A stretch of 52,765 nucleotides of DNA from an uncultured archaeon (GTDB lineage Archaea > Nanobdellota > Nanobdellia > Pacearchaeales > GW2011-AR1), in NCBI GenBank assembly GCA_903831045.1, contig CAIKWG010000030.1, positions 1 to 52,765 of the forward strand, in the 5' to 3' direction. The translations under genes and the position numbers were made by a program. The notes below the pieces were generated by a model. That model made no database searches and was not told the origin of the DNA. It saw only the letters and a program-made list of their open reading frames with translations. Position 1 is the stretch's first letter, and the number at the start of each line of letters is the position of its first letter. Of the stretch, positions 1,280 to 51,128 are shown in pieces.

Positions 1280-1300
1280 TATTAAATTGTAGGAATTACC

Positions 1301-18149: not shown

Positions 18150-18249
18150 GTATTTCTTAGGATTTGTTTTTTTATAAATTTGATTGTTTTTTAGATAGTA
18201 TCTTTTTGAGTATGGAAAACTATTTAAATAGAACTTGATATTTCTAATT

Positions 18250-18522: not shown

Positions 18523-18526
18523 GATT

Positions 18527-19024: not shown

Positions 19025-19064
19025 TTTCAGAAACATATATAAATAATATTTCCTAATCAATAAT

Positions 19065-19685: not shown

Positions 19686-19758
19686 ATATTTTTAAATGAC
19701 TTAGGATAATTATAAATCTGTTAACATTAAATGAGTTGAAATTTATTTTAGAATATGT

Positions 19759-20466: not shown

Positions 20467-20476
20467 CTTATTATAT

Positions 20477-20824
20477 TTATGATTGATTGTTTTTTAACTT
20501 TTCTAAGTCGCTTTTTCTAACAAAATCTAAAGGTTGAAACATTTTTGCCTGTTTTCTTAACAATTCTAGTTCCTCTTTTCTTGCAAATTTAGAAAATTCA
20601 CTTGAGGCTGTTTCTAAAAATGATTTGACTCTATTAAGAGTTTGTTTTATTTCTTCTAGCTCTTTTTTTAGTTCAATGAACTCGCTTTCTGTTCTTTCTT
20701 TTATTTCAATTAAATTTTGACCTATCAAAAGCATCCTATCTTTCAGAAGTCTTTGCTTTTCTTCTAGGTCCCTTATACTTATTTGAGAAGCATATCCGTA
20801 ATCCTGCGATTCCTCTTTTGACAT
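20477..20824 (-). CDS. Small coiled-coil protein
   Basis: 115 aa, E/K/L-rich with a heptad-like pattern. It is first in a two-gene unit divergent from the pilus ATPase. Confidence 0.5.
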   Translation of the reverse strand: MSKEESQDYGYASQISIRDLEEKQRLLKDRMLLIGQNLIEIKERTESEFIELKKELEEIKQTLNRVKSFLETASSEFSKFARKEELELLRKQAKMFQPLDFVRKSDLEKLKNNQS

Positions 20825-20937: not shown

Positions 20938-23229
20938 ATGCAATTTGCTGAAGGAGCAAAGCTCTATGATTTTGTTGTTGAAAGAGAAGGTGGTGAAGAT
21001 ATACTTTATGTTAATTATTTCGGGGCATTATACTCTCCAAACCTAGCGGATTCGGCTGAAGTCATGGAAAGAACAATTGATCTCCTTGTAGAAAATCCAA
21101 ATGTTTCTAGAATTGTTTTTGTTCAGCAAAAGAATTATAATTATGATTTTAAAGAAACTACCTATTTACTTGAAATTGCTAGTCTCTATGTTCATTTAAT
21201 CAGGCAGGAAAAAATTCTGTCCCAGGAAAGATTAGCTCCTTCTAATCCAAATGCTTTTTCTTCCAGGTATAACGCACTTTTTTCATTTTTATATTTATTA
21301 AAAAAAGATCCTATTCTTGCGCATTCTGAATTAAAAAGATTAATCTATGAAGCAAAGATTTTTTTAGAGAGAACCGGTGGAGAAGGATTTAAACTTGATC
21401 AAAGAAATTATATTTCAGTTTTATTGAGAACCATGAGTTTTCTTGAAGGATTGAGAGTTATTCAAGATGCTTCTCCGCACATGGAAATGTATCGGAAAGG
21501 AAGCAGAGAAATTTATCATCATCTGTTTAAACCAGATGTTATTCCTAATTTTACTTTTACTCGTTTGGTATCTGATTTGCCCATGGACGCAGAAATTATA
21601 GATGAGTATAAAATTTCTTTGAATGATTATGATGTTTCTACTGTGACTATTTTAAAAAAGAAAGATGAATCCAGATTAATTTATCACATTGTTCCTCCAG
21701 AGCATGCTTTACCAGAAGAACAAAGTGAACTTCTTAATCTTGCTAGGGGAGTTTTAATTGAACATCAACCAAAAGCAGAAGAATTTACTGATAGTGATAG
21801 AACTCGTCAGGTTTTTTTTAATGTGTCTAAGGATTTATTGAGAGATTTAGCTGAAAATAAGAAAATTAATTTAAGTTTTTATTCTTTGAATAAATTAGCA
21901 ACTATCTTAGTTAGACATACAATTGGTTTTGGACTAATTGAAGTTTTATTGCAGGATAAAAATCTGCAGGATATTTCTTTGAATGCTCCAATTGCTCAGG
22001 TCCCGGTTTACATTAGGCATAATGACTATGATGAATGTACAACAAATATTTTTCCTAGCTTTGAGGATGCTGATTCTTGGGCTGCAAAGTTCAGAATGAT
22101 TTCCGGTAGACCTCTTGATGAAGCAAATCCAATTTTGGATACTCAGTTAGAATTTGGAGGATTGAGAGCCAGAGTTGCAATCGTGCAGGACCCTCTTAGC
22201 CCAGATGGTTTAGCTTATTCTATCAGAAGACACAGAGAATCTCCTTGGACTTTGCCTTTATTTATTGAAAATAAAATGATTAATCCTTTTGCTGCTGGAT
22301 TAATGAGTTTTATGATTGATGGTGCTCGAACACTTTTAATTGCAGGAACTAGAAGTTCGGGTAAAACTTCCTTCCTTGGAAGTTTGATGTTGGAGATTAT
22401 GCCAAAAAATAGGATTATTACTGTGGAAGATTCTCTAGAACTTCCTATTGATTCAATGCGAACTCTTGGATACAATATTCTTAGAATGAAAGTTCGTTCC
22501 GCACTTCTTAAAACTTCAACGGAAGTTGATGCTGCGGATGGAATTCGAACTTCTTTGAGATTAGGAGATAGTTGTTTGATTATGGGTGAAGTACGTTCGG
22601 TGGAAGCTCTTGCATTATATGAAGCAATGAGAGTTGGTGCTTTGGCAAATGTTGTTGCAGGTACGATTCATGGTGCTTCTCCCTACGGGGTTTATGATCG
22701 TGTGGTTAATGATTTGGGAGTTCCAACAACCTCATTTAAGGCAACAGACATAATTGCAGTTGCAAATCCAATAAAATCTGCAGATGGATTACACTCATGG
22801 AGAAGAATGTTACAAATTACTGAAGTTCGTAAGCATTGGGAAAAAGATCCTCTTCTGGAAAAAGGATTCATTGATTTAATGAGATATAATGTTGAAAAAG
22901 ATGAATTGGAGCCAAGTGAAGATTTAATTAATGGAGATAGTGAGATTATTAAGGAAATTGCTTCCAAGGTTAGAGGTTGGGCAGGAAATTGGGACGCAGC
23001 CTATGACAATATTTTGCTGAGAGCAAAGATGAAAGAAGAAATAGTTAAACTTTCTAAAAATTCTGGAAATAAAAGTATTCTCGAAGCAGATTTTAATGTT
23101 AGAGCTAATCACGAGTTCCATAAAATTTCTGATGATGTTGTTTCCGAGATTGGATTGCCATTGAGTTCAAAAGTTTTTCCAAAATGGCAAAAATGGTTGA
23201 ATGAAGAAGTGAAAAGTAGAAAAATTTGA
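20938..23229 (+). CDS. Type II/IV secretion-family ATPase (archaeal PilB/FlaI-like pilus assembly ATPase)
   Basis: Walker A AGTRSSGKTS, Walker B-like CLIMGEVRS and His box AGTIHGASP. 763 aa with a long N-terminal extension. Confidence 0.88.
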   Translation: MQFAEGAKLYDFVVEREGGEDILYVNYFGALYSPNLADSAEVMERTIDLLVENPNVSRIVFVQQKNYNYDFKETTYLLEIASLYVHLIRQEKILSQERLAPSNPNAFSSRYNALFSFLYLLKKDPILAHSELKRLIYEAKIFLERTGGEGFKLDQRNYISVLLRTMSFLEGLRVIQDASPHMEMYRKGSREIYHHLFKPDVIPNFTFTRLVSDLPMDAEIIDEYKISLNDYDVSTVTILKKKDESRLIYHIVPPEHALPEEQSELLNLARGVLIEHQPKAEEFTDSDRTRQVFFNVSKDLLRDLAENKKINLSFYSLNKLATILVRHTIGFGLIEVLLQDKNLQDISLNAPIAQVPVYIRHNDYDECTTNIFPSFEDADSWAAKFRMISGRPLDEANPILDTQLEFGGLRARVAIVQDPLSPDGLAYSIRRHRESPWTLPLFIENKMINPFAAGLMSFMIDGARTLLIAGTRSSGKTSFLGSLMLEIMPKNRIITVEDSLELPIDSMRTLGYNILRMKVRSALLKTSTEVDAADGIRTSLRLGDSCLIMGEVRSVEALALYEAMRVGALANVVAGTIHGASPYGVYDRVVNDLGVPTTSFKATDIIAVANPIKSADGLHSWRRMLQITEVRKHWEKDPLLEKGFIDLMRYNVEKDELEPSEDLINGDSEIIKEIASKVRGWAGNWDAAYDNILLRAKMKEEIVKLSKNSGNKSILEADFNVRANHEFHKISDDVVSEIGLPLSSKVFPKWQKWLNEEVKSRKI

Positions 23230-23250
23230 AGGATATAATTCTCCTCTAGC

Positions 23251-23267
23251 TTAATAATATTTAAATA
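23251..23267 (+). promoter_or_regulatory. TATA-like element for the giant adhesin gene
   Basis: TTAATAATATTTAAATA is centred about 30 nt upstream of ATG 23289, consistent with a leaderless transcript. Confidence 0.35.
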
Positions 23268-23288
23268 GTATCTAGAGTTATTTTTTTT

Positions 23289-26200
23289 ATGAAGAGAAGT
23301 GGGGATTACTTATTTGTTATTTCATTGATATTAGTATTATCTTTATCTCTTGTTTCTGCTGGATGGTTTTCAAATATTTTTGGGAAAATCAGTGGAAATG
23401 CTCCAGCAGTAGATTCTGGAGATGGAGGAACAAATTCTGGAGTAACGTCTGGTTCTAGTTATGCTTCGAGATATTGGTCTTTTTTTGATGGAAGCGGGGT
23501 TAGTGTTTATTTTAGAACAGAAAGATTTTTTGGTTCTGGAGGAATTGATACAATCGTTAATGGAATTAAACAAGAATATGGACTGACAGATTTTAATATT
23601 GTGAATACAAAATGTTACTTCCAAGATCCTGTTGTTTGTACTAATTTTACTGAAGTGGCTTGTAGTGAATGTGCAACTTCTAAAGATAGATGTGAATTTG
23701 TTAAATTAATTGTTAATTCTGCTAATATTCCTGCATCATCTAGTGGAGCAGGACTTGAAACTGGACCTGCGGAAGAAGCAGAAGCTGGAAATGTTCAATA
23801 CTCTCTAGTTTGTGATTCTATTGCTTTTGCAGATAATAAAGCTAATATTGATATTTTTGATTTCTCTGGAGAACCAATTTTAGCTAATAAAATAAATGTT
23901 CCTACAAATTATAGTCTTGTTAGTTATGAAGATAAAATTTATGTTGTTTCTTCTGGAGCATTAATTGCTCTTGATGCTTCGCAAAAAGAAATTTGGAGAT
24001 ATGAGACCACTACCTCTGGAAAAGGAGGAATATTTTATCAACCCTTTGTGGACGAAGAAAAAGGAATACTTTATGTTGGAGCTAGTAATGGTTTTTTATT
24101 TTCTATTGATCTTAATAAAAGTGTGAGTGGAGCTGTTTTAAATTGGTTTTCTGAATATTCTGGAAATGTAGAATTGAAATCAATGGATTTTAATTCTAAT
24201 TATATTGTTGCCGGGGATAGTTCTAAGGGACTTCTTTTAATTAATAGATCCAATGGTAATAAAATTTTAAATTATTCTGATGGAAAAGGGTTGAGTTATC
24301 CATTTATTTATGAAGATAAAGTTGTTCTTAGTGGGAAAAATAGCATATCTGTTTTTGAATTGACTACACTTAAACCTCTTTGGGAAGAAAAATTTAATGT
24401 AAATTTCATTTCTCCAGTTTTCGTTGATAAAGGAGTTGTTTATGCTGGAAGTTCCTATGGTTTTTATGCTTTGAATTTAAGTTCTAAAGAGTATATCTTT
24501 AGTAGAGTTGGAGGAGCTGATTCTTGGCCTGAAGCGAGAGCAAATCCGGAACATTTCTTTAAGGCTATTTACACTCAACCAGTAGTTGAGGGGGATGTAA
24601 TTTATCTTACTGGTAGTGGAGGAACATTGTTTGCCTTGAATAAGAGTGGATATAAAATTTGGTATTATTCTCTGAGTGGAATTCAAAGAGCAGAAAATGG
24701 TGGAGATATAGTGTATCTTTCTTCTCCAAAAATTATTGGGGATTATATTATTTTCAGTGGGGGAAAAAATCAAGCAACTTCAAAACTTTATGTTCTAGAC
24801 AAAGCTAGTGGGCAAGAACTTTTTAATTATACTCTTGATGGGCAAAGTAGTTTAGCTTCTATTGAAAATGTTCCTGCAACTGCATGTGTAAATAAAATTG
24901 TTTCTGGTCCTCTTGGAAAGAAAAGATTAAGTTGGGCTCAAATTATGGCAAATCTTCTTGCTGCATTAAAATTAAATCCTCCGAGCAGTGGTTCATCTGG
25001 AGTTACCAGAAATGCTTGGGATGTTTTACCATCTACAGGATGTGAAACAGATATGGGTAATTGCGTTAAACTAGAAAATGGGAAGTGGGTTTGCGATAGA
25101 GAATTTTGTACTCTTTATCAAACAACCTATGAAAATGGAATTCCTAACGGAGGAATTTTAATTCCATTCCTTGATTCATTAAAATTAATTTCTATTTCAA
25201 ATGGTGTTGCTAATATTAATCTTACTTATTCAAAAAAAGAAATTTCTCTTGGTAGTGGACAAAAGATGGCTATTGGAGATAGTGGAAAAGGAATTTTAAT
25301 AACAAATACCGGAACTAATTATATTGTCTTTCAGGTTGGTAAGATGGAAGAGTTAGGAGGAAGTACTAGTGGAGGAAATACTGGGGATAGTAAATTAACT
25401 TGTTCGGATAGTGATGGAAAAAATTATGGAACCTATGGTTGGGTTAATTTTACAAAAGAAACATTGAGTGGTGGGAATAATTATCAAACTGGTTCCTATG
25501 AGGATAGATGTATTTCTGGAATAAATTATGAGGCCTATTGTAGTGGATTATTGCCTCAAATAGAAACTTATACTTGTCCCAATGGTTGTGATGTTTCTAA
25601 TAAGTTCTGTAAAGGAAGTTCTAATAAAATTTGTGGTAATGGAATCATAGATGGTGCAGAAGAATGTGATAGAGGAAGTGGTTGTAATACTACTACCTGT
25701 AAATGTGTAACTGGGTTTAAACCTCAATCTCCTCCACAACCTTGGTGTGAACTTGTAGTTGTAGATAATTCTAATTATTATCCTGCACCTTTTTTAGTTA
25801 AAGGAATTACCGATGTTGCAGTTGTTTATAGTACTCTTGGTTCTCCAATTGTTTATACAGATGCTCAAAAAATACAAAATGATTTGGAAAGGAGAAATGG
25901 TTTTCCAATTGGAAATGTTATTATTAATGAATCTAAAATTAATGAAATCAATTCTCATAATTTAATTGTGGTTGGTTCTGCCTGTGAAAATAATTTTATA
26001 AAATCTTTAGCTGGAAAAACAGATTGTACTCAAATTAAAACAGCATTAGGATTATCTTCTAAGGATTATCTAATTAAAAGTTATTCAAATCCTTTTATGA
26101 ATGGTAAGATAATTCTTCTTGTTACGGGATATGGTACCGAAGAAACTTCTGCAGCAGTCAATTATTTAATCTCTTCAACCACTCTTCCTACTTCAGTTGG

Positions 26201-27896: not shown

Positions 27897-27905
27897 TCTT
27901 CTAAA

Positions 27906-27919
27906 CATTTATTAATTCT
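27906..27919 (+). promoter_or_regulatory. TATA/BRE-like element upstream of the platform gene
   Basis: CATTTATTAATTCT lies 48 nt upstream of ATG 27954. An SD-like AGAGAGG sits 5 nt before the ATG. Confidence 0.4.
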
Positions 27920-27953
27920 TTTTTCGTAAATTAAATTGTGAAGAGAGGTGAAT

Positions 27954-30140
27954 ATGGTTGGAAAAAATCCTAAGGTAGATGATATTTTAAAGAAATATAG
28001 TGCTAAGATAGAATCTAATATAAAAGCGGAGATTAATAATAAAACTAATTACAGTCAAGAATATCTTAGATTCAAAGAAGAGATTGCTCCAGAGTATAGT
28101 GGTTATGAGAAATGGTGTCATACTTTGGGAAATACCTTTAAGGTTAAAACTTCTACAAAAGATGAAACTAGATTAAGAAAAACTATCGATGTTGCTCATT
28201 TGGATATTGAACCCTGGCAGGCAATAACATTGTCAATAATGTCTTTTGTTGCCATCTTCTTTTTAGGATTAATTCTTTGTATTGCAATTGCTTTTGTTCA
28301 AGGGGGAATTCAATTTTTTCCTTCTTTGCTTTTTTTTCTGATTATTCTTTTTTCAGTTTTTTTATTTTATTTTGTTAATTCTTATCCTGAAAGATTAGCA
28401 AATAAATGGAGACTTAAAGCATCAAGTCAAATGGTGCCAGCAATTTTGTATATTGTTGTTTATATGAGACATACGCCTAATTTAGAAAAAGCAATTTCTT
28501 TTGCTGCAAATCATCTTCAATATCCTCTTGCATTGGATTTTAAGAAGGTTTTTTATAATGTTGAGATTGGAAAATTTTCCACTATAAAAGAAAGTTTAGA
28601 TAATTATTTAGAAACATGGCAGGATTATTCTGTAGAATTTATTGAAGCATTTCATCTTATTGAAAGTAGTTTGTTTGAACCAAGTGAATCCAGGAGAATT
28701 ACTATTCTTGAAAAATCATTGCAGGTAGTTCTTGATGGGGTCTATGAGAAAATGTTAAAGTTTACTCATAATGTTAGAAGTCCTTTGACTAATGTTTATA
28801 TGCTGGGGGTTGTACTTCCAACTCTTGCTCTTGCTTTGATTCCTCTAGCTTCGGCAATGCTTGGAGGTTCTCTAAAAGCGATTCATGTTTTTGTTTTATT
28901 TAATTTAATTGTTCCTTTTTTTGTTTTCTATTTGACAGATAAAGTTTTATTAATGCGTCCGGGTGGACATGGAGAAACAACTTTGTTGAAAAAAAATCCA
29001 CTTTATGCAAATTATAAAAGTGCAACACCATATATCACAGCATTTATTGTTTGTTTTCCTCTTCTTATTTTAGGTTTGCTTCCTCTTATTTTTCAAATAG
29101 ATTTTTCGGGTGTTCCGAGTAATCCAGTAAATTTTATGGGTTTGCAAAAGGATTTTACTTTTGGAGACTTGGGGGTTCCATTTGCTAAGCTTAGTGAGGT
29201 AAAAGTTTTTGGTTTTGAGCCTACAGATAGTGGAATGCGAGGGCCTTTTGGTTTAGGAGCAACTCTTCTTGGATTATTCTTTCCCTTGAGCATTGCTCTA
29301 TTCTTTTCTCTTGCTTATAGAGATAAAACTAAGTTATTAATTAAAGAGAGAGAAAAAACAAAACAACTGGAAGATGAGTTTAATAATTCTTTATTTCAAA
29401 TGGGAAATAGGCTTGGAAATAATGTTCCTCCAGAACTGGTCTTTGGAAAAGTTGCTGAGGCTAATAAAAACTTAATGACTGGAAACTTTTTTGCAAGAGT
29501 TAATTATAATATTCGTCAGATGGGTATGAGTGTTGAGAAAGCTATCTTTGATGATAAACGAGGAGCTCTAAAATATTTTCCTTCTGACATTATTGCTACA
29601 AGCATGAGGGTGTTAATTGAATCTTCTAAGAAAGGATTAAAAATTGCTTCGATGAGTTTGATGAGTATTTCTGAATATGTAAATAATATTGGAAAGATTA
29701 CCGCTCGGTTGAAAGATATGCTTGCTGAAATAGCTTCAGACATGAAAAGTAATATGACTTTCTTGGCACCATTGCTATCTGGTATTGTTGTAGCTTTGGC
29801 TGCAATGATTACTGCCATTTTGAGTAAATTAACTTTTAATGAGCTTGGAGATTTGGGAGTTGCAGGTTTAGGAAATATCAGTGAAACATTAAAGATATTC
29901 AATTATCTAGACATGATTCCACCATATTATTTACAAATCATTGTTGGACTTTATCTGATTGAGATTGTATTCATTCTTACAAGCACATTAGTAACTGTAG
30001 ATTCTGGTGAAGATAAGTTAGAAAGTACCAATAAAACTGGGCAGAATTTAAAGAAAGCAATTATGTTATTTTTTATAACCTCTTTATTTGGAGTTATTGC
30101 CCTAACTGTTCTTAGCACAGTTGTTTTGGGTGGAATGTAG
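27954..30140 (+). CDS. Polytopic membrane protein, probable pilus platform (FlaJ/PilC/TadC-like)
   Basis: 728 aa with two clusters of TM helices separated by soluble segments. Called mainly from its position in the ATPase/prepilin/peptidase locus. GTG 27948 trimmed to ATG 27954. Confidence 0.55.
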   Translation: MVGKNPKVDDILKKYSAKIESNIKAEINNKTNYSQEYLRFKEEIAPEYSGYEKWCHTLGNTFKVKTSTKDETRLRKTIDVAHLDIEPWQAITLSIMSFVAIFFLGLILCIAIAFVQGGIQFFPSLLFFLIILFSVFLFYFVNSYPERLANKWRLKASSQMVPAILYIVVYMRHTPNLEKAISFAANHLQYPLALDFKKVFYNVEIGKFSTIKESLDNYLETWQDYSVEFIEAFHLIESSLFEPSESRRITILEKSLQVVLDGVYEKMLKFTHNVRSPLTNVYMLGVVLPTLALALIPLASAMLGGSLKAIHVFVLFNLIVPFFVFYLTDKVLLMRPGGHGETTLLKKNPLYANYKSATPYITAFIVCFPLLILGLLPLIFQIDFSGVPSNPVNFMGLQKDFTFGDLGVPFAKLSEVKVFGFEPTDSGMRGPFGLGATLLGLFFPLSIALFFSLAYRDKTKLLIKEREKTKQLEDEFNNSLFQMGNRLGNNVPPELVFGKVAEANKNLMTGNFFARVNYNIRQMGMSVEKAIFDDKRGALKYFPSDIIATSMRVLIESSKKGLKIASMSLMSISEYVNNIGKITARLKDMLAEIASDMKSNMTFLAPLLSGIVVALAAMITAILSKLTFNELGDLGVAGLGNISETLKIFNYLDMIPPYYLQIIVGLYLIEIVFILTSTLVTVDSGEDKLESTNKTGQNLKKAIMLFFITSLFGVIALTVLSTVVLGGM

Positions 30141-30150
30141 TTAGCTAAAA

Positions 30151-30168
30151 CTTTATTAATTCTATTTT
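30151..30168 (+). promoter_or_regulatory. Conserved promoter element CTTTATTAATTCTATTTT
   Basis: It starts 31 nt upstream of ATG 30182 with no SD, so the transcript is probably leaderless. A near-identical copy lies at 32006. Confidence 0.5.
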
Positions 30169-30181
30169 CTTATTTTTAATT

Positions 30182-30331
30182 ATGAAGAAAAGAGGAATTA
30201 TCTCGGATTATCTGCCTTGGTTAATATTGGGATTAATTGTATTAGTTTTATTTTTACTTGCAGATTGGATTCTAAAAGATAAGGGTTTAGCCATTATAGA
30301 TAATATTAAACAAATTTTTAGGAGAAGATAA
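30182..30331 (+). CDS. Prepilin-like micro-protein (49 aa, not in ORF track)
   Basis: MKKRG-IISDYLPWLILGLIVLVLFLL is a basic tip plus a hydrophobic helix. The stop overlaps the next ATG (TAATG). Confidence 0.45.
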   Translation: MKKRGIISDYLPWLILGLIVLVLFLLADWILKDKGLAIIDNIKQIFRRR

Positions 30332-30495
30332 TGTCTGAAGTAATAATCTCGCCTACAATAAAATGGATTATGGCAATATTAGTTATTGTATTGGTTGCTG
30401 CAGGACTTTATCTTGCATTTAGAGATAATATTCTTGGATTTTTTGAAAACTTGCCTACTGGAGCTAAATTCTTTTTGAGTCTTTTTAAGATATAA
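30331..30495 (+). CDS. Single-TM micro-protein (54 aa, not in ORF track)
   Basis: It contains the helix IKWIMAILVIVLVAAGLYLAF and exactly fills the gap between neighbouring genes with coupled start and stop. Confidence 0.35.
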   Translation: MSEVIISPTIKWIMAILVIVLVAAGLYLAFRDNILGFFENLPTGAKFFLSLFKI

Positions 30496-30496
30496 A

Positions 30497-30976
30497 ATGA
30501 AAAATAAAAGAGGTGAACAAATGTTACCAGAAGAAGTTGTTAAAACTGTTCTTACAGTAATCTGCATAATGTTTTTGGTTTATCTTTTGGTATCACTTTA
30601 TTTTGCAAGAATGAATAGTGGTAAACTTACACAGGCAAAGGATTCAATAGATAGAATAAATCAGGCAATAGATCATATGAAATTAAATAATTTGAATAAT
30701 TATAGTTTGGATGTGTTGAATCCAGCTAAATGGGTTGTATTTGGTTTTGTGGGAAGTGAAATGAAGCCAAACTCTTGTAATGGAAATAATTGTTTGTGTA
30801 TATGTAAAGATGTTCGTGAAGCAAAACAGTTAGAGCAATGTTCAGAGAGTGGAGCTTGCTTAGAAATTTTAGGACTGAAGGATTTTATGGAATTTGAACT
30901 TGGATTGCAGGATGGAAATCCTGTTGGAATGCAATTAAAGATGAATGGTACAATCATTGAGGTAAGAAAAATATGA
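30497..30976 (+). CDS. Prepilin-like protein, Cys-rich
   Basis: Class III signal-like MKNKRG-EQMLPEEVVKTVLTVICIMFLVYLLV. The C-terminal part has 7 Cys (CNGNNCLCIC...). Confidence 0.7.
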   Translation: MKNKRGEQMLPEEVVKTVLTVICIMFLVYLLVSLYFARMNSGKLTQAKDSIDRINQAIDHMKLNNLNNYSLDVLNPAKWVVFGFVGSEMKPNSCNGNNCLCICKDVREAKQLEQCSESGACLEILGLKDFMEFELGLQDGNPVGMQLKMNGTIIEVRKI

Positions 30977-31074
30977 CTTTCGAAGGTATTATGAAACTGT
31001 TATTGTGGATTTCTTTATTTATTCTTTTGCTTGGTGGATTATATGCTTTATTAAAGGCAGTGGGAGTTATGTGA
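30973..31074 (+). CDS. Single-TM micro-protein (33 aa, not in ORF track)
   Basis: MTFEGIMKLLLWISLFILLLGGLYALLKAVGVM. It has an ATGA overlap with the upstream stop and ends 2 nt before the next ATG. Confidence 0.3.
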   Translation: MTFEGIMKLLLWISLFILLLGGLYALLKAVGVM

Positions 31075-31076
31075 AT

Positions 31077-31997
31077 ATGAAAAAGAAAGGTGAGCTAACA
31101 ACAACACAAATTATTGGAATTATTCTCCTTATTGCTGCATTTGCAATTCTCTTATATTTTATGTTTATGGTAAATTTCAAAGAAGGAAATGAAAAACAGA
31201 TTTGTCAGGCATCGGTTATGCAGAGAGCAAGTCCGATAATTCCCGATGATGTGGTTCCATTGCAATGTAAAACTACCTATGTTTGTATTAGTGCAGACAA
31301 TGGAAAATGTGAAAAGGATTTAAGTTCTCCTACTGCTACTTATAAAATAAAGACAAAAGAGCAAACCTATCAGATTATTTCAGATGAATTTGCTGATTGT
31401 TGGTGGATGTTTGGAGAAGGGCAAGTGAATTATGTAGGTAAGGATGCTATTCCAAAATTATACTGTTCTCTTTGCTCGCAAATTGTTTTTGATAAGAGTA
31501 TGTCTAGCATTTTTCCTTCAGGAAATTTTTCTCAGAGAGATATTTACAATTACATGACTAAAATAAAGATATCTGCGAATCAAACTTACAGTGAATATAT
31601 TTATGGAACAAATGATTTGAGTGTTATTAGTGGAAATGGAGAACTTGCATTTGGTGAAATTCTTATCAATCAAAAATATTATATTGGAACTGGAATGAGT
31701 AGTGAATTTGGTGGGCCTGCAGTAGATTTAGCTGGGGGAGTAATTGGATTTGCTTTGAACTTTGTTCCTTTTGCAAAAGGAGCCGGAGCAATTGCTAAAC
31801 CCTTAGGAAAACTTGTTGGAGCAATTAAAATTAGTAAGACGACTTCTACTATTGGGGGTGGAGCTGCAACTCAATTTTTATTAGCACCAGTTATTAGCAA
31901 AATCATTGGAGTTCAGACAGTAGCGCCTTTTATGATGCAACTGAATTCTTCCGAATTCAATGCACTGGAATGCAAACAACTTGCAACTTCATCTTAA
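31077..31997 (+). CDS. Prepilin-like protein with Cys-rich domain and G/A-rich hydrophobic C-terminus
   Basis: MKKKG-ELTTTQIIGIILLIAAFAILLYF. ORF-track GTG start 31005 trimmed to ATG 31077. Confidence 0.7.
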   Translation: MKKKGELTTTQIIGIILLIAAFAILLYFMFMVNFKEGNEKQICQASVMQRASPIIPDDVVPLQCKTTYVCISADNGKCEKDLSSPTATYKIKTKEQTYQIISDEFADCWWMFGEGQVNYVGKDAIPKLYCSLCSQIVFDKSMSSIFPSGNFSQRDIYNYMTKIKISANQTYSEYIYGTNDLSVISGNGELAFGEILINQKYYIGTGMSSEFGGPAVDLAGGVIGFALNFVPFAKGAGAIAKPLGKLVGAIKISKTTSTIGGGAATQFLLAPVISKIIGVQTVAPFMMQLNSSEFNALECKQLATSS

Positions 31998-32005
31998 AGG
32001 AGAAT

Positions 32006-32022
32006 CTTTATTAATTCTATTT
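32006..32022 (+). promoter_or_regulatory. Conserved promoter element CTTTATTAATTCTATTT
   Basis: It starts 30 nt upstream of ATG 32036. This is the second copy of the element at 30151. Confidence 0.5.
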
Positions 32023-32035
32023 CCTGTTTATTAGT

Positions 32036-32464
32036 ATGCAAAATAAAAAAGGTGAGACTACACTTCTTGTTGAAAATATTATCTTTCTAGTATTGAATAT
32101 GCTTTTTTTTGCTATTCTTATTGCTTTTATCGTCCAGCAGTCTTCAGGAGCGGCTCTATTGGAGCAAACTTATTCTAAAAAAGTTGCATTATTGGTTGAT
32201 CAAGCTAAACCAGGAATGATTATTAAACTGAATCTTGAAGAAGGAATGAATGTTGCTGCTAAGGATAAAATTGCTCCTACTGCCATACTAACTGTTCAAG
32301 ATAATTTTATTAAAGTAAAACTTGCAGATGGTGGGGGTCAGGAATATCATTTTTTTAATGATGTTGATGTAAAAATTTTTCCTGAAACAGACGATAATGG
32401 AGATTATTCCGGAGTTTATGTTTTAACGGTTAATAGAAAAATTGCAGGAGAAGCTGAAACATGA
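32036..32464 (+). CDS. Prepilin-like protein
   Basis: MQNKKG-ETTLLVENIIFLVLNMLFFAILIAFIV, 142 aa. Confidence 0.7.
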   Translation: MQNKKGETTLLVENIIFLVLNMLFFAILIAFIVQQSSGAALLEQTYSKKVALLVDQAKPGMIIKLNLEEGMNVAAKDKIAPTAILTVQDNFIKVKLADGGGQEYHFFNDVDVKIFPETDDNGDYSGVYVLTVNRKIAGEAET

Positions 32465-32985
32465 TTAATAAGAAGGGAGAAAAATTGTTGTCTTTGTATT
32501 GGTTTTTAATGTTAACAATTATTGTAGTTGGAATTGTAGTAATGGTGAGAACTTTTTATGGTAATCCCTATGATGTTAGGAGTTTAGAAGCAGAAGTGTT
32601 AAACAATCATGTCTCTAATTGTATATCCTCTGGAGGAAGAATGAATCCTCTTTTAATCTGGCCAGGTACTGGGCAATATCAAGAAAGTTTTAAAGATACA
32701 TTTACAGATAAATGTAGACTGAATCTTGAAGGTCATAATGAATTTGATCCGGTAGAATATTATGTTGAAGTGAATTTATATAATAAATTTGATAAAAAGT
32801 CATTTGCAACTTTCTTTAATGGAAATAAAAATTGGATAGGAGACTGTCAAGCTAGTAATCAATACAAAAATCTTGCCGTTTGTTTTAATAGTACTTTTTA
32901 TTCTTCGGACAGTCTGGGAAATCTTTATCGAGTAGAAACTCTTACTATTGTTCATAAAATAAAGGAGAATGTTAAACAGAATTAA
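32461..32985 (+). CDS. Prepilin-like protein
   Basis: MINKKG-EKLLSLYWFLMLTIIVVGIVVMV, 174 aa, with a 4-nt overlap with the upstream gene. Confidence 0.7.
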   Translation: MINKKGEKLLSLYWFLMLTIIVVGIVVMVRTFYGNPYDVRSLEAEVLNNHVSNCISSGGRMNPLLIWPGTGQYQESFKDTFTDKCRLNLEGHNEFDPVEYYVEVNLYNKFDKKSFATFFNGNKNWIGDCQASNQYKNLAVCFNSTFYSSDSLGNLYRVETLTIVHKIKENVKQN

Positions 32986-32986
32986 A

Positions 32987-33322
32987 ATGAAAAATAAAAA
33001 AGCACAAATTGCTGATACTCTTGCATGGGTAATTGCCACAGTGATTATAGTTGTTTTACTTGTCTTGTTTATTTTTATTTCTTCAATGCTAGCAAGTGGT
33101 AGAGTTGTTAAAGGAGAAGTTAGAGACTCTTTATTTTCAAAAACAGTATCAGATACAACCGATCTTAGTTTAACCAAAACTTTGATTACCTATTATACAA
33201 TTAAGGATAATGTTGTGAAAAAGGCATTGGATAAAGAATTAAAGAAAATTAATTCTACTCTTTCCACAAAGGTAGATTATGATACGCGTGCTAGTGAAAT
33301 TTTAAGGAGGGTATCATCATGA
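32987..33322 (+). CDS. Prepilin-like protein (KA-Q type)
   Basis: MKNKKA-QIADTLAWVIATVIIVVLLVLFIF. ORF-track start 32969 trimmed to ATG 32987, 1 nt after the upstream stop. Confidence 0.65.
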   Translation: MKNKKAQIADTLAWVIATVIIVVLLVLFIFISSMLASGRVVKGEVRDSLFSKTVSDTTDLSLTKTLITYYTIKDNVVKKALDKELKKINSTLSTKVDYDTRASEILRRVSS

Positions 33323-33654
33323 ATAGAAAAGGAAGCATTCCTATCGTACTTCTGGTAATAGGCGTTTTTGCTATTTGTTGTTTTGCACTTTTGACATTCC
33401 TAATGGCTGATTTTAAAGCTACAACTTCCTTTGTGGGAATTAGTATTATGAAAAATCTTACTCAAAATATTGAAGAATACGATTCCTATAAAAATATTCA
33501 AAATATATCTGAAGAAAGATTGGCTAGCATGTTTAATCTAAAAGAAATTAAGGGTCAGGATTGTTTTTATTACGAAGAGTTGGATAAAAAGGCTTTTTCT
33601 CGTCTGCAAGGAGATTATGGTAATGTCTTATTTTCTGTTCAATATTGCCCTTAA
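33319..33654 (+). CDS. Prepilin-like protein
   Basis: MNRKG-SIPIVLLVIGVFAICCFALLTFLM, 111 aa, with a 4-nt overlap with the upstream gene. Confidence 0.65.
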   Translation: MNRKGSIPIVLLVIGVFAICCFALLTFLMADFKATTSFVGISIMKNLTQNIEEYDSYKNIQNISEERLASMFNLKEIKGQDCFYYEELDKKAFSRLQGDYGNVLFSVQYCP

Positions 33655-33681
33655 TTTTAATTTTATCTAAATTAGCATAAG

Positions 33682-33692
33682 CTTTATAAATT
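33682..33692 (+). promoter_or_regulatory. TATA box CTTTATAAATT with downstream SD for the candidate major pilin
   Basis: It lies 47 nt upstream of ATG 33729. GAGGA at 33720..33724 precedes the start. This is the only gene of the array with its own 74-nt intergenic region. Confidence 0.45.
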
Positions 33693-33728
33693 AGTTAATC
33701 TAATATATAATATTCAAAAGAGGATAAG

Positions 33729-34178
33729 ATGAAAACAAAAGCGCAGAGTATGGGTACAAACACAATCATACTTTTAATTTTAGGTTTAGTTGTTCTAGTA
33801 ATTCTTATAATTGGATTTACATCTGGATGGGATAAAGTATTTCCATTCATTGGTGGAGGAAATGTTGATAAAATAACTTCAAGTTGTAGTGCAGCTTGTG
33901 TTACCGGTTCAACTTACGATTATTGTTCTGTTCAAAGAGCTTTAACAGCAAAGGATCAAAATACTGGTAAAACTATTTCAATAAAAACTACTTGTGCAGC
34001 ATTTGCAAATGTTCAACAATTCCAAATTTATGGGGTTGACAAATGTTCTACTGTTGAATGTGCAACAGAATGTGGAAAGATTATAATCAACGGAAAAGCA
34101 GGTCAAACTAGTGGAGTTTATGATGTGACTGCAATTGCAAGTGGTAGCGCTACTTGTATGGTTCCGGCTAGTGAATAG
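33729..34178 (+). CDS. Prepilin-like protein, candidate major pilin (KA-Q type, Cys-rich)
   Basis: MKTKA-QSMGTNTIILLILGLVVLVILIIGF. The 149-aa protein has about ten Cys in the globular part and its own promoter and SD. Confidence 0.7.
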   Translation: MKTKAQSMGTNTIILLILGLVVLVILIIGFTSGWDKVFPFIGGGNVDKITSSCSAACVTGSTYDYCSVQRALTAKDQNTGKTISIKTTCAAFANVQQFQIYGVDKCSTVECATECGKIIINGKAGQTSGVYDVTAIASGSATCMVPASE

Positions 34179-34222
34179 TTATCTTGGGTGATGAGAGGTG
34201 TGATTGGTTTCGTGGAGTGATA

Positions 34223-34229
34223 TTTTTTT
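34223..34229 (+). terminator. Oligo-T tract downstream of the pilin gene
   Basis: A T7 run lies 45 nt after the stop at 34178. Archaeal terminators are typically oligo-T. Confidence 0.3.
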
Positions 34230-34426
34230 ACGTGCTAACTTTATTCTACAAAGGTTAATTATTTAAATTTGATTTTCTTTTTTTAATTATGGATTATGGA
34301 TGTGGAGAGAGGAGAAATAAAGGGAAGGATAAGAAAAGAGATAAAAAGAAACATCCTTACAAGCATGGCGGAGCTATGAGAAGTTCTGATATAGACCAAA
34401 CTGGAAAAAAGAAATAGAAGGATAGA

Positions 34427-34436
34427 ATTATAAATT
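34427..34436 (+). promoter_or_regulatory. TATA-like ATTATAAATT upstream of the prepilin peptidase
   Basis: It starts 29 nt upstream of ATG 34456 with no SD. Confidence 0.35.
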
Positions 34437-34455
34437 CTTTTTTGCTTTTTTATTT

Positions 34456-35286
34456 ATGATTGAGGTTATTGTTTTATTTGTTCTTGCTTTAATTTGGATT
34501 ATCTTTGCTGTTGTGCAGGATTTAAAATCACGTGAAATTGCTGATTGGTTAAATTATTCACTTATTATCTTTGCTTTAGGATTTAGATTGTTTTACAGTT
34601 TGTTTAGTGGAGAATGGAATTTCTTTTTATTTGGAGTAGGAGGATTTGTATTATTCTGTGGGTTAGCTAATTTATTCTATTATGGGAGGTTATTTGCTGG
34701 AGGTGATGCAAAACTATTGATGGCTCTTGGAGCGATTTTACCCTTGCAAGTTTCTTTAATTGAAAATATTAAAAATTTTGGAATTTTCTTATTTTTGTTC
34801 TTGATTGTCGGAGCATGCTATGGATTAATTTATAGTCTAGTTCTTGCAATTAGAAGTTTTAAAAAATTTAGAAAAGAGTTTATTTCACAGTTTAAACAAA
34901 ACAGATATTTAGTGTATGGACTTCTAGCCTTATCCATTATAATCCTTTGTCTTGCTTTTCTTGAGAGAATGTTATTAGGATTGGGAATTTTAGTTTTTGT
35001 ATTTCCTTATTTATTTTTGTGCTTTAAGGCAGTGGATGAAGTTTGTATGATTAGAAAAGTTGCAATTAGTAAATTAACTGAAGGGGATTGGTTGTATCAA
35101 GATGTCAAAGTTGGAAATAAAACAATTAAAGCAACTTGGGATGGATTGAATAAATCAGATTTAATTTTATTAAAGAAGAAAAAGTTTGTTCTTGTTAGAT
35201 ATGGGATTCAGTATGCTCCAGTTTTTCTCATTAGCTTTATACTGTTTGTGATTGGAATGAGCTTCAATTGGTTTGGGTTGATTTAA
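34456..35286 (+). CDS. A24-family prepilin/preflagellin peptidase (PibD/FlaK/EppA-like)
   Basis: Two catalytic Asp motifs in TM context: VQDLKSREIADW and FAGGDAKLLMALGA (GxGD type). 276 aa with a C-terminal extra domain. Confidence 0.85.
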   Translation: MIEVIVLFVLALIWIIFAVVQDLKSREIADWLNYSLIIFALGFRLFYSLFSGEWNFFLFGVGGFVLFCGLANLFYYGRLFAGGDAKLLMALGAILPLQVSLIENIKNFGIFLFLFLIVGACYGLIYSLVLAIRSFKKFRKEFISQFKQNRYLVYGLLALSIIILCLAFLERMLLGLGILVFVFPYLFLCFKAVDEVCMIRKVAISKLTEGDWLYQDVKVGNKTIKATWDGLNKSDLILLKKKKFVLVRYGIQYAPVFLISFILFVIGMSFNWFGLI

Positions 35287-51127: not shown

Positions 51128-51128
51128 T

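What the first reader, a model, noticed from the sequence alone, without database searches (positions are those of the whole stretch)
20938..35286. Complete type IV pilus-like filament locus in one 14 kb co-oriented block
Seen in sequence:
- A secretion-superfamily ATPase (Walker A AGTRSSGKTS, GEVRS, GTIHG).
- A 728-aa polytopic membrane protein.
- About ten ORFs that start with a short basic tip followed by a ~20-aa hydrophobic helix.
- An A24 aspartyl peptidase (DLKSREIAD and GGDAKL).
- All genes are on the + strand and are subdivided by promoter-like elements.

Established: archaeal type IV filaments need a PilB/FlaI ATPase, a PilC/FlaJ platform, a PibD/FlaK/EppA peptidase and subunits with class III signal peptides.

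Inference: this is a self-sufficient surface-filament machine. It is not an archaellum, because I recognised no FlaB-like flagellin or FlaC/D/E/F/G/H genes.

Three features are unusual: the number and size range of the subunits (33 to 306 aa, plus a 1535-aa one), their very high cysteine content, and a 4.6 kb adhesin gene separating the ATPase from the platform. In a small-genome archaeon such a filament is a plausible host or surface attachment organelle.
Basis: partly seen in the sequence, partly recalled or inferred. Interest (0 to 1): 0.7.

Follow-up and report, generated by a model that had tools for sequence, protein, structure and literature searches.

The report
Pacearchaeal type IV pilus-like locus
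This 14 kb block of a tiny-genome (DPANN, Pacearchaeota-type) archaeon encodes the core parts of a type IV pilus-like surface filament machine; its platform and subunits escape standard annotation, and in related genomes some subunits carry enzymes that cut bacterial cell walls, which hints at bacterial hosts.

Summary
On the + strand, 20938-35286 encodes a 763-aa secretion-superfamily ATPase (Pfam T2SSE 2e-14) and a 728-aa polytopic protein. It also encodes eight small proteins with a basic leader ending N-K-[KR]-[GA] before a hydrophobic helix, two leaderless single-helix mini-proteins, and an A24 aspartyl peptidase with both catalytic Asp motifs.

The 728-aa protein has no direct Pfam, NCBIfam or PDB hit. 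It is a T2SSF platform by transitive homology: 31 of 59 diverse homologues hit PF00482. A local Foldseek match to EpsF supports this.

The gene order is conserved across dozens of Pacearchaeota/Woesearchaeota-labelled genomes. About 458 stretches in species-representative genomes encode the platform.

- The 1535-aa protein has a Sec-type signal, not a prepilin signal.
- It sits in a variable slot that is empty in 19 of 59 relatives and sometimes holds housekeeping genes.
- Only half of the small proteins are Cys-rich.

It is not an archaellum, and it fits neither the bacterial Tad nor the Epd/system-1 definitions fully.

In 14 related loci, four different pilin families are fused to SLT or amidase peptidoglycan hydrolase domains. 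The window has no such fusion.

Verdict: a real, conserved archaeal type IV filament system, and a new variant of a known kind.

The parts
20938..23229 (+). Assembly ATPase (763 aa), secretion-superfamily (PilB/FlaI/CpaF-like), with about 220 aa N-terminal and about 130 aa C-terminal extensions relative to the aligned core
   Evidence: Pfam T2SSE 2e-14, aa 428-603. PDB hits: AfGspE 2oap 9e-29 (query 219-609), CpaF 8e-26, FlaI 2e-15. NCBIfam FlaI 1.4e-35 and TadA-family 5.9e-34, both far below their cut-offs. Walker A AGTRSSGKTS, Walker B-like GEVRS and His-box GTIHG read directly.
23289..27896 (+). 1535-aa Cys-rich secreted or surface protein in a variable slot. It has a Sec-type signal peptide, a PQQ-like beta-propeller, at least 5 Cys-rich modules (CxDxDG...EYYC...C..C..C) and 28 N-glycosylation sequons. 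It is a possible adhesin, but its link to the filament is not shown.
   Evidence: Pfam PQQ_2 2.8e-13. No [KR][GA] class-III site. The N-terminus ...LVSA|GWFSNIFGKISG is shared with slot proteins of L002, L013, L028 and L047. Homologues occur in only 4 of 84 loci. Modules and sequons.
27954..30140 (+). Platform protein (728 aa), a divergent PilC/GspF/FlaJ/TadBC-type protein with two T2SSF-like halves in one polypeptide
   Evidence: No direct Pfam, NCBIfam or PDB sequence hit. 31 of 59 homologues hit PF00482; P0169 scores 3.2e-10 with 2 stretches. AF2 pLDDT 85, pTM 0.84. Foldseek local match to EpsF 2vmb_B, prob 0.98, TMt 0.70. N-half vs C-half hhalign E=1.5e-4. At least 1038 50%-identity clusters.
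30182..30331 (+). s49: 49-aa prepilin-like protein, MKKRG|IISDYLPW..., mature 44 aa and helix-only (Flp/EpdE-like). Candidate major subunit.
   Evidence: Found in 64 of 84 loci. G at -1 in 59 of 61 orthologues, E at +4 in 84%, then Y. An s49-like 49-aa gene is also present in the distant L003. Own TATA-like box at 30152.
30331..30495 (+). s54: 54-aa leaderless single-helix mini-protein. Its family consensus M(A)ELTIxQLIKIILG resembles an already processed pilin N-terminus.
   Evidence: Found in 54 of 84 loci. N-termini. The ORF start is the first start codon after the upstream stop. Weak Pfam Flp1_like hit, 0.021.
30497..30976 (+). s159: prepilin-like protein, 159 aa, 7 Cys. Family consensus KKG|FLLAEETLK (F+1, E+5/+6, as in bacterial type IV pilins).
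   Evidence: NCBIfam GspG weak hit, 0.0018, on the N-terminal helix.
30973..31074 (+). s33: 33-aa leaderless single-helix mini-protein (family consensus MNLDxLIKYLIWIVFF)
   Evidence: Conserved in 41 of 84 loci. A 32-aa gene is called at the same place in L002.
31077..31997 (+). s306: prepilin-like protein, 306 aa, MKKKG|ELTTTQIIG..., 8 Cys, with a Gly/Ala-rich hydrophobic C-terminal region
   Evidence: Found in 62 of 84 loci. E at +1 in 84%. TATA-like box at 31047 inside s33.
32036..32464 (+). s142: prepilin-like protein, 142 aa, MQNKKG|ETTLLVEN... (E+5 in 79% of the family)
   Evidence: Orthologues in L038, L066, L067 and L069 carry an SLT domain.
32461..32985 (+). s174: prepilin-like protein, 174 aa, MINKKG|EKLLSLYWF...
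   Evidence: Orthologues in L026 and L009 carry an Amidase_2 domain.
32969..33322 (+). s111a: prepilin-like protein (117 aa from ATG 32969; 111 aa from ATG 32987), ...KNKKA|QIADTLAW (Q+1, E/D+4)
   Evidence: A 117-aa gene is called in L002.
33319..33654 (+). s111b: prepilin-like protein, 111 aa, MNRKG|SIPIVLLVIG, 4 Cys
   Evidence: Orthologues in L001, L019, L039, L046, L064 and L082 carry an SLT lytic transglycosylase domain.
33729..34178 (+). s149: prepilin-like protein, 149 aa, MKTKA|QSMGTNTIILLILG. Its N-terminal 35 aa are conserved and its C-terminal domain is variable and Cys-rich. It is the only family with no conserved acidic residue at +1..+8. Candidate tip or alternative major subunit.
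   Evidence: invariant C53, C66, C89, C106. Own TATA-like box at 33683 plus SD-like AGAGGA. AF2: N-terminal helix 10-37 plus an alpha/beta domain, pLDDT 77.7 in one of five models; no Foldseek match.
34456..35286 (+). Prepilin (class III signal) peptidase, A24 family, 276 aa, about 8 TM segments (hand-counted from the sequence) plus a roughly 60-aa soluble insert before the last TM
   Evidence: Pfam Peptidase_A24 6e-12. NCBIfam FlaK 5e-10. FlaK 3s0x 1.5e-7, with D22 and D83 motifs aligned. Found in 47 of 84 loci at the same position.
30146..30164 (+). Example of the TATA-like promoter element (AAAACTTTATTAATTCT), about 30 nt upstream of the s49 ATG. Similar elements lie at about 27908, 31047, 32007, 33683, 34426 and 35311.
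   Evidence: Intergenic sequences printed; positions; the chance expectation for the narrow consensus is modest.

Best explanation
The block is the assembly system of a type IV filament (TFF-superfamily pilus or pseudopilus) of a Pacearchaeota-type DPANN archaeon.

Proposed mechanism:
1. Eight prepilin-like proteins are inserted into the membrane by their N-terminal hydrophobic helix.
2. The A24 aspartyl peptidase (D22, D83) removes the short basic leader after the conserved N-K-[KR]-[G/A] site.
3. The hexameric ATPase, docked on the two-T2SSF-domain platform, extracts the processed subunits from the membrane and stacks their helices into a filament.
4. The six globular prepilins that carry a conserved acidic residue at +1 to +6 (s159, s306, s142, s174, s111a, s111b) most likely form a priming or tip complex of minor pilins.
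5. The shaft is most likely built from the 44-aa helix-only s49 (Flp/EpdE-like, G|xxxEY). The alternative shaft subunit is s149.
6. The filament probably serves attachment to a host or surface.

In related genomes, minor pilins fused to murein hydrolases indicate that the target surface is a bacterial cell wall.

Shown here: identity of the ATPase, the platform superfamily and the peptidase; the conserved cleavage-site motif; and synteny. Inferred: cleavage itself, filament formation, the roles of individual subunits, and function.
For: - ATPase.
- Platform: 31 of 59 homologues hit T2SSF; confident AF2 model with a local EpsF match; internal duplication E=1.5e-4.
- Peptidase: both Asp motifs align to FlaK.
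- Prepilins cluster: all eight true class-III-like ORFs of the 52.8 kb window lie within 4 kb, between the platform and the peptidase.
- Cleavage-site signature: across 43-62 orthologues per family, -1 is G or A in 100%, -2 and -3 are K or R, leader length varies from 4 to 31 aa, and conservation starts at the site.
- Acidic residue: conserved at +1, +4 or +5 in seven of the eight families.
- Synteny: collinear order ATPase-platform-s49...s149-A24 across the 84 fetched loci, including a 777-kb contig and a lineage at 43% platform identity whose downstream genes are again class-III-like.
- Distribution: about 458 matches in species-representative genomes.
- Hydrolase fusions: peptidoglycan hydrolase domains are fused to four pilin families in 14 related loci.
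- No archaellin or Arl accessory domain was found in any ORF scanned.
Against: - The window's own platform protein hits no T2SSF model or solved structure directly. The profile-to-PDB hit to GspF is weak (E=0.26), and whole-chain Foldseek is not significant.
- No pilin Pfam or NCBIfam family matches any subunit above threshold.
- The s149 model is confident in only one of five runs and matches no known pilin fold.
- The major subunit is not identified and could lie outside the window.
- There are no expression, proteomic or imaging data.
- The window itself has no hydrolase-fused pilin, so the bacterial-wall inference is by relatives only.
Confidence: 0.75

Rival explanations
1. The machine is a type II secretion-like or bindosome-like pseudopilus rather than a long pilus. 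The many 'minor pilin'-like proteins would form a short piston or surface scaffold that exports or anchors large Cys-rich surface proteins (such as the 1535-aa protein) or hydrolases through the cell envelope.
For: - Eight globular-to-tiny pilin-like proteins sit in one operon-like array with no obviously dominant major pilin, a layout like gspG-K or comG.
- s159 weakly hits GspG.
- Cys-rich Sec-secreted proteins recur next to the ATPase in several genomes (L002, L013, L022, L028, L047).
- Hydrolase domains are attached to pilin-like N-termini.
Against: - The slot next to the ATPase is empty in 19 of 59 loci and sometimes holds UvrABC, so no cargo is fixed.
- The tiny helix-only s49 is conserved even in distant lineages, like the shaft subunits of Tad/Epd pili.
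- No secretin or other conduit is expected or seen.
Confidence: 0.15
2. The machine is a DNA-uptake (competence) pseudopilus analogous to the ComG system of monoderm bacteria, feeding nucleotide-auxotrophic cells with environmental DNA.
For: - The gene order ATPase-platform-several small pilins-peptidase resembles comGA-GG plus comC.
- NCBIfam ComGA hit, 4.9e-10, far below its cut-off.
Against: - No ComEC, ComEA or DprA-like domain was found in any scanned ORF of the window.
- Peptidoglycan-hydrolase fusions in relatives point to cell-wall contact rather than DNA capture.
- The ATPase is closer to AfGspE, CpaF and FlaI than to ComGA.
Confidence: 0.07
3. The locus is a divergent archaellum (motility filament) whose archaellins and accessory proteins are too diverged to recognise.
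For: The best NCBIfam hit of the ATPase is the FlaI model (1.4e-35), and the best hit of the peptidase is FlaK.
Against: - Both scores are far below the family cut-offs (123 vs 550 bits; 39 vs 330 bits).
- The ATPase is closer in sequence to AfGspE and CpaF than to FlaI.
- There is no Arch_flagellin, ArlF/G, ArlH (KaiC-like) or ArlC/D/E/X hit in or near the locus.
- The ATPase carries large N- and C-terminal extensions, which are absent from archaellum ATPases according to preprint 10.64898/2026.04.22.720090.
Confidence: 0.03

Closest known systems
Archaeal TFF 'system 1' / Epd pilus of Methanococcus maripaludis (clade 1 of Makarova et al. 2016, PMC4858521; preprint 10.64898/2026.04.22.720090)
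   Same: - A complex locus with many (at least 5) minor pilins and a dedicated prepilin peptidase encoded in the locus.
- A very small helix-only pilin candidate (s49), like EpdE.
- Q at +1 in two families (s111a, s149), recalled from memory as typical of EppA substrates.
- System 1 is reported to occur in DPANN.
   Different: - System 1 is defined by two platform genes; here one 728-aa gene holds both T2SSF-like halves.
- The major Epd pilins are usually stand-alone genes elsewhere in the genome.
- No FleN/MinD ATPase was seen in the window.
- ATPase clade membership and EppA-type (9-TM) peptidase identity could not be tested.
- No pilin matches DUF361/Class_IIIsignal.
Bacterial Tad/Flp pilus (CpaF/TadA, TadB+TadC, Flp, TadV/CpaA)
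   Same: - The ATPase aligns well with CpaF (8e-26) and the TadA family (5.9e-34).
- Some platform homologues are named 'Flp pilus assembly protein TadB' by JGI.
- s49 is a roughly 44-aa mature helix-only pilin with G|xxxEY, close to the Flp G|xxxxEY motif.
- The peptidase lacks a methyltransferase domain.
   Different: - One fused platform gene instead of TadB plus TadC.
- The EY motif is one residue closer to the cleavage site.
- No TadZ/CpaE, no secretin, and no TadE/F/G homology detected.
- The host is an archaeon.
Type II secretion / ComG pseudopilus operons
   Same: - Gene order of ATPase, platform, then a row of small pilin-like genes.
- F+1/E+5 in the s159 family and E+5 in s142, as in bacterial pseudopilins.
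- One subunit family (s149) lacks the acidic residue. GspK, the T2SS tip subunit, is recalled from memory to lack it too.
   Different: - No secretin, GspL/M or ComEC.
- Sequence similarity is limited to the N-terminal helix (GspG 0.0018).
- The peptidase is of the archaeal FlaK/PibD type.
Archaellum (ArlB/ArlI/ArlJ/ArlK)
   Same: The same superfamily core: ATPase, platform, A24 peptidase and class III signal subunits.
   Different: - No archaellins and no ArlF/G/H/C/D/E/X.
- The ATPase has extra domains.
- Scores to the FlaI and FlaK equivalog models are far below their cut-offs.

Membership tests
Type IV filament (TFF) superfamily, archaeal | Secretion-superfamily ATPase (PilB/FlaI/TadA type) with Walker A, Walker B and His box | tested here: met
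   Pfam T2SSE 2e-14, above the gathering score. PDB hits to AfGspE, CpaF and FlaI. Motifs read.
Type IV filament (TFF) superfamily, archaeal | Polytopic platform protein of the T2SSF (PilC/GspF/FlaJ/TadBC) family | tested here: met
   Met indirectly. The window protein itself gets no hit. 31 of 59 full-length homologues hit PF00482; P0169 scores 40.5 bits against a cut-off of 25.2, with 2 domains. Local Foldseek match to EpsF, prob 0.98.
Type IV filament (TFF) superfamily, archaeal | A24 prepilin / class III signal peptidase with two catalytic Asp | tested here: met
   Pfam Peptidase_A24 6e-12, above its cut-off. D22 and GGD83 align to the FlaK motifs.
Type IV filament (TFF) superfamily, archaeal | Subunits with a class III signal peptide (basic leader, G/A at -1, then a hydrophobic helix) | tested here: met
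   Eight ORFs pass a FlaFind-like scan. The motif is conserved in 43-62 orthologues per family. Cleavage itself was not tested.
Type IV filament (TFF) superfamily, archaeal | Subunit with the type IV pilin fold (long N-terminal helix packed on a beta-sheet domain) | tested here: inconclusive
   The s149 AF2 model has an N-terminal helix plus a small alpha/beta domain, but only 1 of 5 models is confident and Foldseek finds no pilin match.
Archaellum | Archaellin (ArlB/FlaB, PF01917) and ArlF/G, ArlH, ArlC/D/E or ArlX accessory genes | tested here: not met
   No such Pfam or NCBIfam hit in the locus proteins or in the flanking ORFs that were scanned (most of the window's ORFs of 120 aa or more).
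Archaeal TFF system 1 / Epd pilus | Two separate platform (TadC-like) genes | tested here: not met
   A single 728-aa platform gene here and in all 84 related loci.
Archaeal TFF system 1 / Epd pilus | Clade-1 ATPase and EppA-type (arCOG02300, 9-TM) peptidase | not testable with these tools
   No arCOG profiles or Epd reference sequences were available. By hand-count the peptidase has about 8 hydrophobic segments, more than the 5-6 of FlaK/PibD, which is suggestive only.
Archaeal TFF system 1 / Epd pilus | Many minor pilins plus a very short major pilin without a globular domain | tested here: met
   Six globular prepilins carry a conserved acidic residue, and s49 is helix-only with a 44-aa mature form. 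Whether s49 is the major pilin is inferred.
Bacterial Tad/Flp pilus | Flp pilin with G|xxxxEY, TadB+TadC, TadZ/CpaE and a secretin | tested here: not met
   s49 has G|xxxEY, shifted by one residue. There is one platform gene, and no ParA/MinD-like or secretin domain in the ORFs scanned.

The most novel reading that the evidence does not exclude
The filament is a cross-domain host-contact device. A pilus or pseudopilus of Pacearchaeota carries, on its minor or tip pilins, interchangeable modules that bind or cut the bacterial cell wall: Cys-rich adhesin domains in this genome, and SLT lytic transglycosylase or N-acetylmuramoyl-L-alanine amidase domains in relatives. If so, these archaea attach to, and locally breach, bacterial hosts. 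Pilin-fused murein hydrolases would be a previously undescribed class of pilus-borne enzymes, and the first molecular handle on the unknown hosts of this very abundant lineage.
Probability: 0.3. Interest if true: 0.85.

Novelty: new variant of a known kind. Interest (0 to 1): 0.58.

Why it matters
Pacearchaeota and Woesearchaeota are among the most abundant uncultivated archaea in groundwater and lakes. Their hosts and their mode of attachment are unknown.

One widely read study used 'type IV pili components are missing in DPANN genomes' to assign piliated ultra-small cells to CPR bacteria (10.1101/2020.05.14.094862). This locus shows that a TFF gene set containing all four core components is a conserved, syntenic core feature of the lineage, with about 458 matches in species-representative genomes. 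It is missed because the platform and all subunits escape Pfam and NCBIfam.

The locus gives concrete targets for proteomics, cryo-ET and heterologous cleavage assays: the NK[KR]G/A site, s49 and s149. Through the hydrolase-fused pilins of relatives, it also offers a testable link between the filament and bacterial cell walls.

Tried and rejected
1. Direct detection of T2SSF in the window protein failed with Pfam, NCBIfam, phmmer against PDB, and a 20-sequence profile against PDB. A 59-sequence profile gave only E=0.26 to GspF.
2. Whole-chain Foldseek of the platform model gave no significant hit. Only a local EpsF match (prob 0.98) and the PilC model in 3jc8 (prob 0.41) appeared.
3. The AF2 model of s149 was weak (one good model of five) and had no Foldseek match.
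4. The search for related loci with the diverse alignment A2 failed because it has no conserved stretch. A1 worked.
5. The homology search with s149 found only 8 proteins, so this subunit evolves fast.
6. Rfam and tRNA scans of the window found nothing. In particular, the 278-bp gap 34179-34455 is not a known RNA; it holds a conserved 42-aa basic ORF.
7. The 1535-aa protein as a giant pilin was rejected: it has a Sec-type signal and sits in a variable slot.
8. The idea that the adhesin insertion between ATPase and platform is a defining feature was rejected.
9. An archaellum was rejected (see the membership test).
10. Clade assignment of the ATPase (Makarova clades 1-4) could not be done with the tools at hand.

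Full report
**Context.** The window is from a low-GC (about 31%) archaeon. It encodes Cdc6/Orc1, both PolD subunits, RadA, an XPF/ERCC4 nuclease and a GAN-like DHH protein. Close homologues of the locus proteins come from MAGs labelled Pacearchaeota, Woesearchaeota or Nanoarchaeota. No tRNA and no Rfam family is present in the window.

**Observation.** The block 20938-35286 is entirely on the + strand.
- The 763-aa protein at 20938-23229 is a secretion-superfamily ATPase. Pfam T2SSE scores 2e-14 over aa 428-603.
- Its best solved relatives are A. fulgidus GspE 2oap (9e-29, query 219-609), Caulobacter-type CpaF (8e-26) and FlaI (2e-15).
- NCBIfam FlaI and TadA-family models hit at about 1e-35 but far below their cut-offs. 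It therefore belongs to the superfamily, but to none of the curated equivalogs.
- Relative to the aligned core it has about 220 extra N-terminal and about 130 extra C-terminal residues. A 2026 preprint describes such extensions as subsystem-specific in archaeal TFF ATPases.
- The 276-aa protein at 34456-35286 is an A24 peptidase (Pfam 6e-12). Its VQD22LKSREI and AGGD83AK motifs align with the two catalytic-Asp motifs of FlaK 3s0x.

**Platform.**
- It has no Pfam, NCBIfam or PDB sequence hit, and neither do its close relatives (precomputed Pfam '-' for all top hits).
- The family is large: more than 3165 90%-identity clusters and at least 1038 50%-identity clusters.
- In a diverse 59-sequence alignment (A2, down to 22% identity), 31 members hit PF00482 T2SSF when scanned individually.
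- The best is P0169. It aligns to the window protein over its full length (E=2e-86, 30% identity) and scores 3.2e-10 and 40.5 bits against T2SSF. That is above the 25.2-bit gathering score, with two stretches, the first covering model positions 4-124 of 125.
- The AF2 model built on A2 is confident (pLDDT 85, pTM 0.84) and all-helical, with two cytoplasmic helical bundles separated by TM hairpins.
- Whole-chain Foldseek is not significant. The EpsF cytoplasmic domain 2vmb matches locally (prob 0.98, target TM 0.70, rmsd 3.2 over 123 columns), and the PilC model of 3jc8 appears at prob 0.41.
- The N- and C-halves of the family align to each other by hhalign (E=1.5e-4), as expected for a duplicated T2SSF architecture.
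- I conclude that it is a divergent PilC/GspF/FlaJ-type platform with both halves in one gene.

**Subunits.** A FlaFind-like scan of every ATG-initiated ORF in the window gives eleven hits. The scan requires [KR][GA] in the first 30 aa, no earlier hydrophobic stretch, and a hydrophobic helix within 10 aa.
- Eight hits are the consecutive genes at 30182, 30497, 31077, 32036, 32461, 32969, 33319 and 33729.
- The other three are internal starts in polytopic proteins.
- Two further mini-genes, s54 (30331) and s33 (30973), have the helix but no leader. Their ORFs begin at the first possible start codon.

**Orthologue evidence.** I fetched 84 related loci and searched their six-frame ORFs with the window proteins.
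- Every one of the ten small genes has orthologues in 41-64 loci, in the same order.
- Aligned on the putative cleavage site, all eight leader-bearing families show N-K-[KR]-[GA] at -4..-1.
- G or A occupies -1 in 100% of 43-62 sequences per family.
- Leaders vary from 4 to 31 aa, and conservation is low upstream of -4.
- Family-specific conservation starts immediately after the site.
- This is the signature of a cleaved class III signal peptide.
- Seven families keep an acidic residue near the new N-terminus: E/D+1 in s306 and s111b, D/E at +1 or +2 in s174, E+4 in s49 and s111a, and E+5 in s159 and s142. The s159 consensus G|FLLAEE matches the bacterial F+1/E+5 rule. Only s149 lacks such a residue.
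- s49 is helix-only (44 aa mature) with G|IISEY, one residue off the Flp G|xxxxEY motif.
- A similar 49-aa gene follows the platform even in L003, where the platform is only 43% identical.
- s149 has a highly conserved N-terminal 35 aa and a variable C-terminal domain with four invariant cysteines.
- Its AF2 model (an N-terminal helix plus a small alpha/beta domain) is confident in one of five runs and has no Foldseek match. The pilin-fold test is therefore inconclusive.

**The 1535-aa protein.**
- It has a PQQ-like beta-propeller (Pfam 2.8e-13), at least five Cys-rich modules of about 60-74 aa, and 28 N-glycosylation sequons.
- Its N-terminus is a Sec-type signal: a basic tip, a 16-aa h-region, then VSA|GWFSNIFGKISG.
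- The same '...SA|GWF(S/D)NxWGKI(S/T)G' junction recurs in otherwise different large proteins in L002, L013, L028 and L047. The protein fails the class-III scan.
- The ATPase-to-platform interval is a variable slot. Of 59 loci, 19 have a gap of 150 bp or less, 20 have 150-1000 bp, and 20 have more than 1 kb.
- Slot contents range from Cys-rich secreted proteins to a recurrent tail-anchored protein of about 160 aa, and even UvrABC in L050 and L062. In L003 the two genes overlap.
- So the protein may be an adhesin. It is not a subunit, and its position is not diagnostic.

**Promoters and cysteine.**
- TATA-like boxes (CTTTATTAATTCT and variants) lie about 27-30 nt upstream of the ATGs of s49, s306, s142, the A24 peptidase and the downstream 73-aa ORF. 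This is consistent with leaderless transcripts.
- Boxes about 46 nt upstream, combined with purine-rich SD-like motifs, precede the platform and s149.
- The narrow consensus is only mildly over-represented (4 observed, 1.35 expected), so these are plausible promoters, not proven ones.
- Cysteine enrichment is real. Five of the six most Cys-rich ORFs of the window belong to the locus, against a median of 0.9%. It applies to five of the ten small proteins only.

**Mechanism.** The parts fit the standard type IV filament cycle: membrane insertion of the prepilins, leader removal by the A24 peptidase, then ATPase- and platform-driven extraction and polymerisation. By analogy with bacterial systems, I infer three things.
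- The globular, acidic-residue-bearing subunits form a priming or tip complex.
- s49 is the most likely shaft subunit (roughly 0.5), with s149 as the alternative (roughly 0.3).
- s149, which lacks the acidic residue, could instead be the tip subunit. GspK in type II secretion lacks it too; this is from my own knowledge and was not tested.

**Relatives add a functional clue.** In 14 related loci, pilin-like genes of this locus carry peptidoglycan hydrolase domains behind the class III signal.
- s111b family plus SLT (PF01464, 1e-13 to 1e-15): L001, L019, L039, L046, L064, L082.
- s142 family plus SLT: L038, L066, L067, L069.
- s174 family plus Amidase_2 (PF01510, 2e-26): L026, L009.
- Other pilin-like N-termini plus amidase (L010) or plus SLT (L080).
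- These are independent fusions in at least four families. Archaea have no murein, so the fusions argue that the filament contacts bacterial cell walls.
- Large extracellular SLT proteins were already noted in Pacearchaeota and Woesearchaeota (PMC8204110). The papers I read do not mention fusion to pilins of a TFF locus.
- The window itself has no SLT or amidase domain.

**Comparison with known systems.**
- It is not an archaellum: there are no archaellins or Arl accessory genes, the ATPase has extra domains, and scores to the equivalog models are far below their cut-offs.
- It resembles archaeal system 1 (Epd) in its complexity, its locus-encoded peptidase and its tiny helix-only pilin. System 1 is reported in DPANN.
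- It fails the two-platform-gene criterion for system 1. ATPase clade and EppA identity could not be tested.
- It resembles Tad in ATPase similarity and in the Flp-like s49, but it lacks TadZ, a secretin and split platform genes.
- One groundwater study stated that T4P components are missing in DPANN. This locus shows otherwise for Pacearchaeota, and the reason is that annotation misses these genes.

**Verdict.** This is a real, conserved type IV filament locus and a new variant of a known kind.

Noticed in passing
L001 16659-17504; L019 15310-16128; L039 15266-16099; L046 15261-16076; L064 15908-16708; L082 16350-17084; L038 11084-12088; L066 7756-8796; L067 14327-15286; L069 10588-11628; L026 14534-15661; L009 16711-17901; L010 16485-17750; L080 12337-13125: In 14 related loci, class-III-signal pilin-like genes of this locus are fused to peptidoglycan hydrolase domains (SLT lytic transglycosylase or Amidase_2). 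The fusions occur in at least four different pilin families, which suggests a filament that presents murein-cutting enzymes to bacterial cell walls. The window's own orthologues lack these domains.
   Followed up: partly
window 34289-34417 (+): A 42-aa, extremely basic ORF (family consensus ...RRNKRKDKKKEKKKHPYKKGG...) lies between s149 and the peptidase gene. It is conserved at the same position in 49 of 84 related loci. It has no known family and no Rfam hit in the surrounding 278-bp gap. Its function is unknown and it is probably not a filament part.
   Followed up: partly
window 18235-20824: A PRC-barrel protein (95 aa), two polytopic membrane proteins (165 and 206 aa) and two minus-strand coiled-coil cytoplasmic proteins (235 and 115 aa) lie directly upstream of the ATPase. 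They keep this position in 50-57 of 84 loci, including L003 at 43% platform identity. None has a Pfam hit except PRC. They could be accessory components of the machine or simply conserved neighbours.
   Followed up: partly
window 23289-23390; L002 5920-; L013 8539-; L028 4130-; L047 8403-: Large Cys-rich secreted proteins of very different lengths (457-1584 aa) share a conserved junction right after the Sec signal: ...(L)VSA|GWF(S/D)NxWGKI(S/T)G. This may be a sorting or anchoring motif of surface proteins in this lineage.
   Followed up: no
L050 3635-9923; L062 3630-9921: In two related genomes the slot between the ATPase and platform genes holds three large genes whose sizes and N-termini look like UvrA, UvrB and UvrC. 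They were named by eye, not by a family search. This shows the slot is a general insertion hotspot rather than a cargo position.
   Followed up: no
window 49226-52754 (-), e.g. 50129, 50291, 50576, 51474: Two adjacent large minus-strand ORFs (633 and 541 aa; no Pfam hit for the first) contain a near-identical DNA segment of about 45 nt (GCTTTATACAATCCATTTGCAGAAGCTGTTGTTGAATAGCTTGATTT) repeated at least four times. They are probably repeat-containing surface proteins.
   Followed up: no
window 68-6912 (+): Cdc6/Orc1 is followed directly by the small and large subunits of DNA polymerase D. The window may therefore lie next to a replication origin.
   Followed up: no
window 30331-30495 and 30973-31074: The two leaderless mini-proteins begin like processed pilins. 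The s54 family consensus M(A)ELTIxQLIKIILG resembles the mature s306 consensus ELTTQQIVxLIILI. They may be pilin-like subunits that need no peptidase; I know of no precedent for that.
   Followed up: partly
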